64,000 nucleotides of DNA from Eledone cirrhosa (lineage: Eukaryota), in NCBI GenBank assembly GCA_964016885.1, contig OZ024741.1:338706001-338770000 (forward strand). Reading direction: 5' to 3'. Under the pieces are notes generated by a model, which saw only the letters and a program-made list of their open reading frames with translations, did no database searches and had not been told where the DNA came from. Of the stretch, positions 9,039 to 22,926 are shown one piece after another. Both the position numbers and the translations under genes were made by a program. Within the stretch, counting starts at the first letter, position 1. Every line of letters starts with the position of its first letter.

Positions 9039-10936
9039 TCAATCCCAAAGTGTTCTTTTCATTTGCAAAAAAACACAAAATCACTGGCTCTACTGTTGGC
9101 CCTCTAATTGATGAAAATGGCACTCTTCAAGACAATGCTAAAACCATGGGTGAGATACTGCAGAAACAATACTGCTCTGTTTTCAGCAATCCTGATATGG
9201 CCGATCTGGGCTGTATCGGCGATGTTACTCCCCATTACACCTTATCGGACATAACGTTTGGCGCCCCTGATGTCTTGGCGGCAATAAAGGAAATCAAGCA
9301 TAATTCAGCAGTAGGTCCCGATAGGTTCCCTGCTTGTGTCTTGAAGGCGTGTCAACACCAACTTGCTTCTCCTCTTGCCAATCTGTGGCGGAACCCACTG
9401 GATGCTGGATATGTGCCAGAAAACCTATCAAAGTCTGTTGTCCCAGTTTTCAAAAAGGGAAACAAATCCCTTGCCGTGAATTACCGTCCAATCTCACTCA
9501 CCTCTCATATCATTAAGGTATTTGAGCGAGTGGTGAGATCGCGAATGACCCACTTCCTTGAGAGTAACAATATGCTGAACTCCAACCAGCATGGATTCCG
9601 TAATGGAAGGGATTGCCTGACGCAGCTACTGCATCACTTTGATGACATTTTGAGAGCCTTGGGAGAGGGTTCCAACACTGATGTTATCTACCTTGATTTC
9701 AGCAAGGCCTTTGACAGGGTTGATCATAACATTCTACTGAGAAAGCTGTCCAATATTGGTGTCACTGGAAAGCTGCTGCAGTGGATCAAGAGCTTCCTGT
9801 CAAACAGAACCCAACATGTTGTCCTTGAGGGAGTCAAATCCAGCCCAGCCAAAGTCAGTAGTGGGGTCCCACAAGGCACTGTGTTGGGCCCACTTCTCTT
9901 CATCATCTATATTAATGACATCACTGACATCATCAAACACAGCAACATTAAAATTTTCGCTGATGATTCCAAGCTCCAAAAGGTCATCAATGGCGTGGAT
10001 GACCGGATAAGCCTTCAGTCAGACCTACTGGCTGTTACCCAATGGGCAGAAAAGAACAACATGTTACTGAACGAAGACAAATTCGAACTGATCCACTTTG
10101 GAAAAGAGGATGCTCTGAAACTCCCGTACTCCCTTCCCTCCGGGGAAACTCTCGTGGCATCTAACAACATCAGAGACTTGGGAGTAACCGTGGACAGCAA
10201 CATAAGCTGGACCACGCATATAAGCAGCAAAGTTGACATGGCCCGCAGAATGTGTTCCTGGATCCTCAGAACCTTCCAGTCGAGAGATTCCCGCACCATT
10301 ATCCTTCTCTTCTCTACTTTCGCCCGACCACACCTTGAATACTGTTGTCCACTGTGGTCTCCCCACACGAAACAAAGTATCATGAAACTTGAAGCTCCTC
10401 AAAGGGCAATCACGAAAAAGATAGATGGCATGTCAGACCTTGACTACTGGGGTCGATTGGAAAACCTGAAACTTTACTCACTCCAACGTCGCCGTGAGCG
10501 TTATATTATCTGCATGATGTGGAAAATGTTCCATCATCACTGCCCAAATGATGTTGGCATCGCCTTCAAGATACACCCAAGGCTTGGGCCCCGTGCTATC
10601 CGTCCCATTCAAAAATCTAAATCGCAACTCATAACAACAATACGGCACAATTATTTCACCTCAATCGGCCCTGCTCTCTTCAACATCACACCAGGACACG
10701 TCAAAACAGAAACTGACCACACAAAATTCAAAAAGTCTTTGGACAAATTCCTCCAAGTAATCCCGGACAAACCACCCACACCCAGATATGTCTCCGCAAA
10801 CAGTAATTCTCTTCTCGAATGGGCCATGGTGCCCAAATCCTGAATTGAAAGACTTCGCCAGGTGGTGCTATTAAGTTAGACATGGCCTGGGCCAATACTG
10901 GCCAAAACATTTCAAAGTTATTCAAAGTTCAAAGTT
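9039..10936 (+). mobile_element. CR1-group LINE, copy 1 (5'-truncated; open RT frame to stop at 10843)
   Basis: RT motifs [46 protein letters not shown]. Short 3'UTR ending in TTCAAAGTTA repeats. Flanked by TA arrays. Confidence 0.95.
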
Positions 10937-11520
10937 ATATATATATGTATATATATATATGTATATATATATGTATATATATATATGTATATATATATAT
11001 ATATGTATATATATGTATATATATATATGTATATATATGTATATATATATATACATATATATATATACATATATATATATATATATATATATATATATAC
11101 ATATATATATATATATATATATATATATATACATATATATATATATATATATATATACATATATATATATATATATATATACATATATATATATATATAC
11201 ATATATACATATATACATATATATATATATACATATATATATATATATATATACATATATATATATATATATACATATATATATATACATACATATATAT
11301 ACATATATATATACATATATATATATATATATACATATATATACATATATATACATATATATATATATATATACATATATATATATATATATATACATAT
11401 ATATATATGCATATATATATACATATATATATATATACATATATATATACATATATATATATATATATATATATATATATATGTATATATATGTATATAT
11501 ATATATATGTATATATATGT
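10937..11520. repeat. Degenerate (TA)n array
   Basis: TATG block, then TACA block, then TATG block. Confidence 0.97.
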
Positions 11521-19719: not shown

Positions 19720-22700
19720 AACTTTGAATAACTTTGAAATGTTTTGGCCAGTGTTGGCCCAGGCCATGTCTAACTTAATAGCACCACCTGGCGAAGTCTT
19801 TCAATTCAGGATTTGGGCACCATGGCCCATTCGAGAAGAGAATTACTGTTTGCGGAGACATATCCGGGTGTGGGTGGTTTGTCCGGGATTACTTGGAGGA
19901 ATTTGTCCAAAGACTTCTTGAATTTTGTGTGGTCAGTTTCTGTTTTGACGTGTCCTGGTGTGATGTTGAAGAGAGCAGGGCCGATTGAGGTGAAATAATT
20001 GTGCCGTATTGTTGTTATGAGTTGCGATTTAGATTTTTGTATGGGACGGATAGCACGGGGCCCAAGCCTTGGGTGTATCTTGAAGGCGATGCCAACATCA
20101 TTTGAGCAGTGATGATGGAACATTTTCCACATCATGCAGATAATATAACGCTCACGGCGACGTTGGAGTGAGTAAAGTTTCAGGTTTTCTAGTCGACCCC
20201 AGTAGTCAAGGTCTGACATGCCATCTATCTTTTTCGTGATTGCCCTTTGAGGAGCTTCAAGTTTCATGATACTTTGTTTCGTGTGGGGAGACCACAGTGG
20301 ACAACAGTATTCAAGGTGTGGTCAGGCAAAAGTAGAGAAGAGAAGGATAATGGTGTGGGAATCTCTCGACTGGAAGGTTCTGAGGATCCAGGAACACATT
20401 CTGCGGGCCATGTCAACTTTGCTGCTTATATGCGTGGCCCAGCTTATGTTGCTGTCCACGGTTACTCCCAAGTCTCTGATGTTGTTAGATGCCACGAGAG
20501 TTTTTGACTCCTTCAACTACAACATGTTGGGTTCTGTTTGACAGGAAGCTCTTGATCCACTGCAGCAGCTTTCCAGTGACACCAATATTGGACAGCTTTC
20601 TCAGTAGAATGTTATGATCAACCCTGTCAAAGGCCTTGCTGAAATCAAGGTAGATAACATCAGTGTTGGAACCCTCTCCCAAGGCTCTCAAAATGTCATT
20701 AAAGTGATGCAGTAGCTGCGTCAGGCAATCCCTTCCATTACGGAATCCATGCTGGTTGGAGTTCAGCATATTGTTACTCTCAAGGAAGTGGGTCATTCGC
20801 GATCTCACCACTCTCTCAAATACCTTAATGATATGAGAGGTGAGTGAGATTGGACGGTAATTCACGGCAAGGGATTTGTTTCCCTTTTTGAAAACTGGGA
20901 CAACAGACTTTGATAGAAGGTTTTCTGGCACATATCCAGCATCCAGTGAGTTCCGCCACAGATTGGCAAGAGGAGATGCAAGTTGGTGTTGACACGCCTT
21001 CAAGACACAAGCAGGGAACCTATCGGGACCTACTGCTGAATTATGCTTGATTTCCTTTATTGCCGCTAAGACATCAGGGGCGCCAAACGTTATGTCCGAT
21101 AAGGTGTAATGGGGAGTAACAACGCCGATACAGCCCAGATCGGCCATATCAGGATTGCTGAAAACAGAGCAGTATTGTTTCTGCAGTATCTCACTCATGG
21201 TTTTAGCATTGTCTTGAAGAGTGCCATTTCATCAATTAGAGGGCCAACAGTAGAGCCAGTGATTTTGTGTTTTTTTGCAAATGAAAAGAACACTTTGGGA
21301 TTGAGTTTGATGTTCTCAATGGCCCAGGCCTCTTCAGCTCTTCTCTGATTGTTGATGAGGGACATTATGTTGTTTTGGAGGTTATGTTTTTTAATCTCTA
21401 GTGATGAAATGGCAGTCAAGTTGATGTGTTGCTGCTGACAGTATTTCAGCTTGTTGATTTTTTTGTTCGCTCTCTTAATTTTTCTGATGAGCGTTTTTCT
21501 ATTTCTAGGGATTCTGCTCTTAGATTTGTTTATAGTTCTTAATGGGGTGTGTTTAGCACATATGTTTGTAACAGTGTCCACAAATGTCTGCCAGGACTTT
21601 TTGATGTTAGTGGGTGTATGAGTGTGCATGAAGGATCAGTCGACATGTGCAAGATCATGACTGATCGCTTCCCAGTTTGCATTGTGGAAATCCATAGCGT
21701 CAAACGGATGGACAGGAGAGATGACATTGGGTTTGTATATTGGACGGTGGAATCTCAGATCACAGAGAACCATGTCATGATCAGAGAGTAGAGTTTTCTC
21801 CACTGCAATATTGTGGATATTGTCAGTGTGATTGCTGAAAATTAAGTCTAGGACGTTTTTGTGGCACCTCGTTGGTTCGAGCACCAGTTGGGATAGGAAG
21901 AAATCATCCATGAAGTCAAGAAGCGATTCCACTGCTTCCCTGTCAGAGGTTGAGGCAGAAGAACCTGGTGGCAGGCTGTTTGTGGACCAGTCAACTCCGG
22001 GGAGGTTGAAGTCCCCCACCATTAAGATGTTGTCAGGGTGACACTCTTGGATGAAACACTTTATGCTGTTGAGGCATTCCTTGAAGCATGGTACAGGCGT
22101 TTGGGGTGGCCTATAGAGCCCAACTACTATTAGGTTGTTGGTTTGACTGAATACAGTGACTGCTTCACAGTATCCATTAGTGAATATGTTCATAGCCTCT
22201 GTTGAGAAAGAATTATGGACATAAATGGCAGTCCCGCCCTTTCTTCTGCCAGCGCGATCAGCACGGATGGCTTTGAAATTTTTCACTTTCACCTCGGCTT
22301 CCAAGTGGAGGTTACTGAGATGGGTTTCAGTGAGGACGAAGAAAGGGATGTGGTTTGGATGGACATCAATCCAGTCCTCCAGGAATTTGATCTTCCATTT
22401 TTGAGTATTGGTGGAAGGGCGCCTTGGGCGTTAAGCAAAAATGTAGAGGCGAGAGTGGATGGTTTTAATTGTTTTGGTGTGTTGTTAATTTGTTTGTTTG
22501 TTAATGGCAGCAATGGGAGTTTGTGCAGTGGGGTGATAGTGGAGGGTGGTGCTGGGTGATAGCTCGAATGTTTTTTTCCAGTTCTTTTGCCAGATTCATT
22601 ATGGCTAAAAAAGAGGAAGAAGTTTCCTGTTTAGAATACTGTTGGTGACTGTGGTAGTGGTTATTTTTATGTAGGTTAAGGTTTTTGTTTTTGCTTTTAT

Positions 22701-22926
22701 TTTTAATTTTATTTTCATTTGTCCGACGGGCCCCCGGGAGATGGGTAAAGGGACAATCCCGGTCTAAACACAATCTGTCTCGCAGGGAAAAGCGGCAGAT
22801 TTGTGGATTCCTTGTTTGAGTTATTGGTGGTTGTGTTGGTGTTAAATTAGAGTATGTATTATGTTGGTGGCTGTTTGTGGGGATAGATCGTTTTGTCCTA
22901 GGTAAATGGGTGAATTTGCAGCCACT
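19720..22926 (-). mobile_element. CR1-group LINE, copy 3 (ORF1 3' part + APE + RT; frameshifts and ~0.3 kb internal deletion)
   Basis: APE motifs LTETHL, RADR...GGTAIYV, GLYRPP, VGDFNLP, LDLIFSN, SDHDMV. RT matches copies 1 and 2 but lacks the VPQG-FADD segment (junction ~20505). Tail aactttgaataactttgaa at 19720. Confidence 0.95.
22501..22926 (-). CDS. LINE ORF1 C-terminal fragment with CCCH-type zinc fingers
   Basis: ..GCKFTH.. (truncated finger) and [19 protein letters not shown] (C-x8-C-x4-C-x3-H), immediately upstream of the APE region. Confidence 0.7.

What the first reader, a model, noticed from the sequence alone, without database searches (positions are those of the whole stretch)
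9039..22926. Young LINE family apparently targeting (TA)n arrays: three independent insertions in 14 kb
Seen: three near-identical copies with the same 3' end but different 5' truncation points (9039, 15941, 22926), in both orientations. Each has private variants (e.g. ENL-SK, ENLLSQ, ENLLSK), and each is flanked on both sides by TA arrays. No copy lies outside TA arrays in this window, and two RT frames are still open. Known: microsatellite-specific LINEs exist in the R1, Tx1 and R4 clades, whereas CR1-group elements are generally regarded as non-specific. Inference: a recently active APE-type LINE with (TA)n preference that uses microsatellite arrays as safe harbours, shared with Penelope elements.
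Basis: partly seen in the sequence, partly recalled or inferred. Interest (0 to 1): 0.75.

Follow-up and report, generated by a model that had tools for sequence, protein, structure and literature searches.

The report
CR1-type jumping gene targeting TA repeats
Three jumping-gene copies here belong to a young family of thousands that sits almost only in TA-repeat tracts across this genome, unlike a second family of the same likely CR1 type, likely because its own cutting enzyme prefers alternating TA; such targeting is known from other jumping-gene groups, so this is a new variant rather than a new kind.

Summary
Observation confirmed and extended to the genome. The three copies belong to a young 5.0-kb APE-RT LINE family (3,678 exact 3'-UTR matches in 3.0 Gb) of likely CR1 type. 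1,387 of 1,447 forward-strand 3' ends are followed by TATATA; 45 of 52 young copies have a TA array at the 3' flank and 35 of 46 at the 5' flank, against 4.1% background and 1 of 30 / 0 of 25 for a second CR1-type family. Arrays pre-exist: both flanks share one interruption style (30 of 34), no TA tail is added, and copy B splits a marked array unit with a 4-6 bp duplication. The copies come from different source lineages, but A and C share one variant found nowhere else (local conversion or polishing). The preference is not exclusive to this family: an RTE family has 13 of 30, and the scan noted TA-seeking RTE and Tx1 LINEs elsewhere in this genome. Endonuclease preference plus short tail pairing is inferred, not shown; 'safe harbour' is untested; clade lacks a labelled tree.

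The parts
9039..10937 (+). LINE copy A, 5'-truncated in ORF2; RT frame open, private 3-nt deletion
   Evidence: 99.3% to full-length copy L070
15940..16017 (+). 78-bp tandem duplication at B's 5' junction (43-50 bases of element plus TA array)
16018..18391 (+). LINE copy B, 5'-truncated at the end of the APE domain; RT frame open; 4-6 bp target duplication inferred
   Evidence: 0 differences in 1,707 bases to L081
19719..22928 (-). LINE copy C: ORF1 3' half (CCCH-like motifs), APE, RT; stop at 21636, frameshift at 21230, internal deletion at 20503
6525..9038 (.). TA array a1, 5' flank of A
10938..11518 (.). TA array a2, 3' flank of A; carries the shared higher-order unit
11825..12805 (.). TA array a3; shares a long block with a5
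12805..15462 (-). Penelope-like remnant with 240-bp inverted ends and a GIY-YIG-like ORF piece (14482-15150); label rests on recalled motifs, Pfam gave no hit
15460..15939 (.). TA array a4, 5' flank of B
18392..19718 (.). TA array a5 between the tails of B and C; holds an uninterrupted copy of the unit that B splits (about 19480-19640)
22929..25230 (.). TA array a6, 5' flank of C
25228..25430 (-). 3' end of an RTE-like LINE with a (GAT)n tail bordering array a6

Best explanation
This is a young, high-copy LINE family of likely CR1 type whose copies sit in pre-existing (TA)n arrays across the genome, likely because its APE endonuclease prefers to nick alternating TA DNA and the RNA end (...GUUA) then likely pairs with 2-3 bases of the cut TA strand to prime reverse transcription. 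Shown: genome-wide TA flanks, arrays older than the insertions, fixed TA register at the 3' junction, TA microhomology at 5' junctions, intact APE catalytic motifs. Inferred: that the endonuclease, rather than ORF1 or a host factor, makes the choice; that the short duplication at copy B comes from target-primed reverse transcription; that long arrays collect several insertions and likely lose them again by array recombination. The window is one expanded array that has caught three such copies, a Penelope-like element and, at its edge, an RTE end.
For: 1,387 of 1,447 forward 3' ends have TATATA within 24 bases against 10.7% background and at most 414 of 1,353 for the control CR1-type family. 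TA array in the 40-base flank: young copies 45 of 52 (3') and 35 of 46 (5'); all ages 56 of 80 (3'); second contig 18 of 19 (3') and 10 of 20 (5'); control 1 of 30 and 0 of 25; background 4.1% (Fisher p 2e-14 and 8e-11). Same interruption style on both sides in 30 of 34 sites, permutation mean 12.9, maximum 24 in 10,000. Distance to the first interruption is alike on both sides (medians 4 and 3 in 24 sites), so no TA tail is added. None of 65 copies at 94% or more starts its 3' flank out of register; 24 of 36 5' junctions have TA microhomology against 31% expected. The control family's tail also ends in TTA yet does not collect in arrays, so tail pairing alone is not enough. Copy B splits a marked unit with one G duplicated. 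PMC4494074 (passages) states that target choice is mainly set by the endonuclease; PMC6007223 (passages) describes one-to-several-base tail/target overlaps for CR1, L2 and RTE.
Against: No biochemical or de novo insertion data. The APE domain shows no feature that sets it apart from 90 relatives of unknown target (hairpin-loop length is the commonest one). An unrelated RTE family also favours TA (13 of 30 in arrays, 23 of 30 starting ATAT, ATAC or ATGT), which points to a host-side contribution. Older copies (<90%) have an array at 4 of 15 3' flanks and 1 of 15 5' flanks, although 13 of 15 start with a TA-type word. Some young copies have a non-TA 5' flank. The target duplication was read at one copy only, by proxy. 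Flank samples come from contigs C1 and C2 only.
Confidence: 0.6

Rival explanations
1. Targeting comes from tethering: the ORF1 N-terminal helical (weakly Myb/SANT-like) domain or a host factor would bring the particle to TA arrays, and a non-selective APE would cut there.
For: ORF1 residues 9-74 match Myb_DNA-bind_4 at E=0.0023; three helices predicted; no ORF1 was examined for the control family.
Against: The Pfam score (18.7 bits) is under the cut-off (27); fold searches gave nothing or only coiled coils; only 5 unnamed relatives found.
Confidence: 0.13
2. TA arrays are fragile or exposed host sites (hairpins, cruciforms, breaks), and several retroelements would exploit ready-made 3' ends there with little sequence reading by their own nuclease.
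For: RTE and Penelope-like elements share the arrays; the youngest copies lie in the longest arrays; breaks at TA repeats are reported in human cells (PMC13645644, search listing only).
Against: The control CR1-type family in the same genome is not enriched in arrays (1 of 30); APE catalytic motifs are intact; the 3' register is fixed and copy B has a short duplication.
Confidence: 0.15
3. The element needs only a short TATA word or supplies TA itself (tail or read-through RNA), and the long arrays would grow around copies afterwards (microsatellite seeding).
For: Old copies have short 3' TA runs (median 21 bases) and mostly non-TA 5' flanks; the 3' side always has some TA while the 5' side may have none.
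Against: The youngest copies have the longest arrays (3' array of 200 bases or more: 20 of 31, 15 of 21, 0 of 13, 0 of 15 by falling identity), on both sides and in the same locus style; no added TA; copy B splits an existing unit.
Confidence: 0.08
4. The three copies would be a local segmental duplication or an assembly artefact.
For: A and C share a 2-base variant found nowhere else in the genome; the arrays share internal blocks.
Against: A, B and C carry different alleles that segregate among genome-wide copies; B is identical to a copy on another contig (0 of 1,707) and is only the 20th-closest of 44 to A's type from its own side; C differs from B at 26 of 2,066; truncation points differ; the family occurs in unrelated sequencing runs.
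Confidence: 0.04

Closest known systems
Microsatellite-targeting APE LINEs: Kibi (TC)n and Koshi (TTC)n of the Tx1 clade; Waldo (ACAY)n and Mino (AC)n of the R1 clade (PMC3812793, PMC4494074, passages)
   Same: APE-RT element inserted in a simple repeat on both sides; passes the working rule of more than 20% of flanks.
   Different: Target is (TA)n, palindromic, so both orientations occur; the element lacks the C-terminal zinc knuckle recalled for R1 and Tx1 ORF2 and looks CR1-type.
CR1-group LINEs (CR1/Zenon; PMC13343379 passages and section 15)
   Same: APE-RT ORF2, short tandem-repeat tail, frequent 5' truncation, short junction microhomology.
   Different: Strong microsatellite targeting, not mentioned in that paper (0 occurrences of 'microsatellite'); ORF1 with helical N-terminus, polyQ and two CCCH-like motifs instead of esterase; has an ORF1 and no poly-A tail, unlike Zenon as defined there.
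Naiad and Neptune Penelope-like elements (PMC8557442, passages)
   Same: (TA)n is the preferred target; present in Octopus.
   Different: GIY-YIG endonuclease and pseudo-LTRs; unrelated enzyme.
RTE LINEs whose tail repeat biases the site (PMC6007223, passages), including the RTE family of this genome
   Same: Tail/target overlap of 1-3 bases; TA-rich landing sites in this genome.
   Different: Weaker array preference here (13 of 30 against 56 of 80, p=0.015; against young 45 of 52, p=9e-5); single ORF, (GAT)n tail.
Dong (R4 clade, (TAA)n) and TA-targeting DNA transposons Micron and MuTAnT (PMC3812793 passages; PMC4486113 search listing)
   Same: AT-rich microsatellite targets.
   Different: Dong is an R4-clade element with a restriction-like nuclease (recalled); the others are DNA transposons.

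Membership tests
CR1-group LINE | ORF2 with N-terminal APE and RT | tested here: met
   Pfam Exo_endo_phos_2, Exo_endo_phos and RVT_1 over cut-off in L070 ORF2; best solved match L1 ORF2p over both domains
CR1-group LINE | 3' tail of short tandem repeats, no poly-A | tested here: met
   (TTCAAAGTTA)1-3 in 65 copies; feature recalled, consistent with PMC13343379
CR1-group LINE | RT groups with labelled CR1-group references | not testable with these tools
   No labelled references could be loaded; quick tree of 45 unlabelled rows only shows a lineage apart from the control family (38-41% identity) and the RTE/Tx1-like rows. CR1 call rests on the recalled post-RT motif (PHLEYC..WSP...RR.R).
Zenon (as defined in PMC13343379) | No ORF1 | tested here: not met
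   386-codon ORF1 in L070
Zenon (as defined in PMC13343379) | Poly-A tail | tested here: not met
   Tail is a 10-base repeat
R1 or Tx1 clade | C-terminal zinc knuckle in ORF2 and CCHC gag knuckles in ORF1 (recalled features) | tested here: not met
   No such Pfam hit or motif in L070 ORF1/ORF2
R4/Dong clade | C-terminal restriction-like endonuclease instead of APE | tested here: not met
   N-terminal APE
Target-specific non-LTR family (working rule of PMC4494074) | One sequence type in more than 20% of flanks | tested here: met
   56 of 80 3' flanks in TA arrays; 1,387 of 1,447 with TATATA
Target-specific non-LTR family | Endonuclease cleaves the target selectively | not testable with these tools
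   Needs a nicking assay
Myb/SANT-like DNA-binding domain in ORF1 | Profile or fold match | tested here: inconclusive
   E=0.0023, below cut-off; model pTM 0.36, fold searches uninformative

The most novel reading that the evidence does not exclude
A third, independent origin of sequence-specific targeting among APE retrotransposons, inside the CR1 group: an active two-ORF element with an undescribed ORF1 (Myb-like helices, polyQ, two CCCH fingers) that reads (TA)n DNA or its hairpin form directly, with long arrays acting as a sink that gains and sheds copies.
Probability: 0.35. Interest if true: 0.7.

Novelty: new variant of a known kind. Interest (0 to 1): 0.5.

Why it matters
Reported target-specific non-LTR families fall mostly in the early-branching (RLE) clades, R1 and Tx1 (PMC4640811, passages). 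A CR1-type family with about 90% (TA)n specificity, living beside a non-specific CR1-type family in the same genome, is a ready-made pair for asking which part of an APE LINE sets its target. It also shows long TA arrays as shared, fast-changing landing pads that shape repeat clustering in this genome. It does not open a new mechanism class: microsatellite targeting and TA targeting are both known from other elements.

Tried and rejected
DNA search of the own genome with the 3' end returned nothing because common words are skipped; patterns were used instead. No RNA holder listed: no statement on expression. Laying four runs on the A/C variant showed no contig with both changed bases: inconclusive between conversion and polishing, since contigs drop rare variants. 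Laying reads on the 3' end gave no usable tail junctions because repeats are skipped. 80 metagenome relatives (28-46% identity) show no long TA run after the match (longest 12 bases), but short-read contigs lose such flanks, so this was not counted. The protein atlas did not hold the ORF1 sequence. Fold searches of the ORF1 model were empty or coiled-coil only. Motif searches in supplements of PMC10294476 (12 of 33 files, then files 21 and 25) and PMC13343379 gave no match, and long sequence cells are cut there, so labelled libraries could not be compared; they may hold this family. The careful tree did not finish; the quick tree was used. Fold-back artefact between B and C rejected: 26 differences, different lengths, array not mirror-symmetric. 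Selection against non-TA insertions rejected as sole cause: the control family persists at non-TA sites. A short SINE sharing the tail was looked for in held loci and not found; the short matches were truncated copies.
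Full report
1. Observation. Self-comparison and alignment show three copies: A 9039-10937 (+), B 16018-18391 (+) and C 19719-22928 (-), and no other piece of the family in the window. All end in 1-3 copies of TTCAAAGTTA and all six junctions touch TA arrays of 0.5-2.5 kb. A and B keep an open RT frame; C carries a stop, a frameshift and an internal deletion. B's 5' junction is duplicated as a 78-bp tandem unit (15940-16017 region). The window is G000:C2:338706001-338770000 of a 3.0-Gb genome; the closest named protein is from Argonauta hians (57%), so the host is likely an octopod (inference).

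2. The element. A 30-base 3'-UTR pattern has 3,678 exact matches, an ORF1 pattern 503. A full-length copy (L070:2768-7764, 5.0 kb) has a 5' UTR with tandem duplications and an internal TA run, an ORF1 of 386 codons (helical N-terminus, polyQ, two CCCH-like motifs by eye) and an overlapping ORF2 frame of 1,045 codons without an ATG near its start. ORF2 has APE and RT domains over Pfam cut-off; the ORF1 N-terminus matches Myb_DNA-bind_4 only below cut-off. Five of 20 long copies on C2 begin at the same base as L070, and ORF2 is open over 1,000 codons in 8 of 20 (C2) and 5 of 20 (C1) long copies. An older subfamily (about 80% to the young one, 83-95% among its members) exists. Other relatives are 42-57% identical and mostly unnamed; one cluster holds a ctenophore (Bolinopsis) protein. 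The CR1 label rests on domains, tail type and a recalled post-RT motif; the quick tree had no labelled references. By PMC13343379 (section 15) it is not Zenon, having an ORF1 and no poly-A tail.

3. Genome-wide target test. 1,387 of 1,447 forward-strand 3' ends have TATATA starting within 24 bases (forward rows are listed once per site; the tail's own last TA can count). Background is 10.7%. A second young CR1-type family (945-codon ORF, (TTA)n tail) gives at most 414 of 1,353 (numerator from a shorter pattern, so an upper bound). I then read flanks of 80 of the 3,678 sites, all among the first 100 listed on C1. With an array defined as 70% or more TA/AT steps in 40 bases: copies at 97% or more to L070, 45 of 52 at the 3' flank and 35 of 46 at the 5' flank (6 had no readable 5' flank); 90-97%, 7 of 13 and 6 of 12; under 90%, 4 of 15 and 1 of 15; control family 1 of 30 and 0 of 25; background 4.1% of 388,479 windows in 39 evenly chosen 10-kb stretches. 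Twenty long copies on C2 gave 18 of 19 (one lacked a 3' end) and 10 of 20. Several 5' misses are boundary effects or extra bases before an array. An RTE family, tested after earlier scan notes pointed to it, gave 13 of 30 and 7 of 23. Of 16 matches to the Penelope-like end, 6 abut an array; most of the rest continue into the element itself.

4. Arrays came first. In 34 sites where both flanks had at least two interruptions, the dominant interruption type matched in 30 (permutation mean 12.9, maximum 24). In 24 sites with arrays of 100 bases or more on both sides, the distance to the first interruption was alike (medians 4 and 3; sum 16.6 against a length-biased spacing of 18.5), so no pure TA tail is added. 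The window arrays share a higher-order pattern of interruptions; one unit is intact at about 19480-19640 and split by copy B, with one G present on both sides, which implies a target duplication of at least TGTA and up to 6 bases (one case, read by proxy). The 3' junction is in TA register in all 65 copies at 94% or more where the tail was parsed (none starts ATAT), and 24 of 36 5' junctions overlap the TA register by at least one base against 31% expected. Array length falls with copy divergence: 200 bases or more at the 3' side in 20 of 31, 15 of 21, 0 of 13 and 0 of 15 copies. Loss of copies from long arrays, array shrinkage, or recent array growth would each give this; I cannot separate them.

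5. Independence. A, B and C differ at sites that segregate among copies elsewhere; B is identical to L081 on C1 over 1,707 bases; C belongs to another haplotype class. Against full independence, A and C share a two-base change absent from 34 other aligned copies and found exactly twice in the genome, both here, flanked in A by B-type alleles. This is a short conversion tract or polishing cross-talk; four other runs did not decide it. Clusters are usual for the family (18 of 100 with a neighbour within 15 kb, two other triples; control 10 of 100, no triple).

6. Mechanism. Most likely target-primed reverse transcription at a nick in alternating TA, with 2-3 bases of tail pairing (60%). The control family has the same TTA tail end but no array preference, so a protein determinant is needed; APE is the default candidate (PMC4494074, passages), though its sequence shows nothing special against 90 relatives and the control. 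Rivals: host fragile-site capture (15%), ORF1 or host tethering (13%), seeding or later growth (8%), artefact (4%).

7. Literature. Nine searches found no report of a CR1-group family targeting (TA)n; Repbase, Dfam and subscription papers were not searchable, so a database note may exist. Seen: PMC3812793, PMC8557442, PMC4640811, PMC4494074, PMC6007223, PMC4120745, PMC13708176 (passages); PMC10294476 (passages, partial supplement searches); PMC13343379 (passages, section 15, supplement search); PMC13282606 (first third and passages: 13 recently active CR1 families in Octopus vulgaris, the word 'target' absent); PMC4486113 and PMC13645644 (search listing only). PMC4120745 does not mention Myb or CCCH among Jockey/CR1/L2 ORF1 types. 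The scan had no note on this protein but several on TA-seeking RTE and Tx1 families in the same genome.

8. Verdict. Real, genome-wide and stronger than in the other families tested; a new variant of microsatellite targeting in a clade not known for it, with mechanism and clade still to be nailed down. Interest 0.5.

Noticed in passing
window 10938-25230: TA arrays a2, a4, a5 and a6 share a higher-order pattern of G and C interruptions, and a3 and a5 share a long block (score 35 against at most 18 for 55 arrays elsewhere): the array grew by internal duplication.
   Followed up: partly
L070:2768-3500; L064, L090: The 5' UTR holds an internal TA run and a variable number of tandem units (about 50 and 260 bases).
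   Followed up: no
L070:4540-4666: ORF2 overlaps the end of ORF1 by about 126 bases and has no ATG near its start, so translation may start by reinitiation, frameshift or a non-AUG codon.
   Followed up: no
L081 and L341, 5' junctions: A reverse-complement piece of the element's own tail lies between the array and the 5' end.
   Followed up: no
L070:7675-7745: Short-read contig depth jumps about tenfold over the last 70 bases in two runs, suggesting many very short or older copies or a SINE sharing the tail; none found in held loci.
   Followed up: partly
P0007 cluster: Among the closest non-cephalopod relatives (49%) is a cluster with a ctenophore protein; patchy distribution or horizontal transfer was not tested.
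   Followed up: no
window 38123-38926 (+): Exon-like ORF with several C2H2 zinc-finger motifs (by eye).
   Followed up: no
window 53568-54230 (-): 220-codon ORF piece that looks like a Tc1/mariner transposase (recalled resemblance).
   Followed up: no
window 56962-64000 and 34134-35599: A 50-base satellite (at least 140 copies, 94% matches) and a 54-base minisatellite (27 copies).
   Followed up: no
window 11515-11830: A 300-base interspersed repeat sits between arrays a2 and a3 and recurs beside other family copies (72-97% identity).
   Followed up: no
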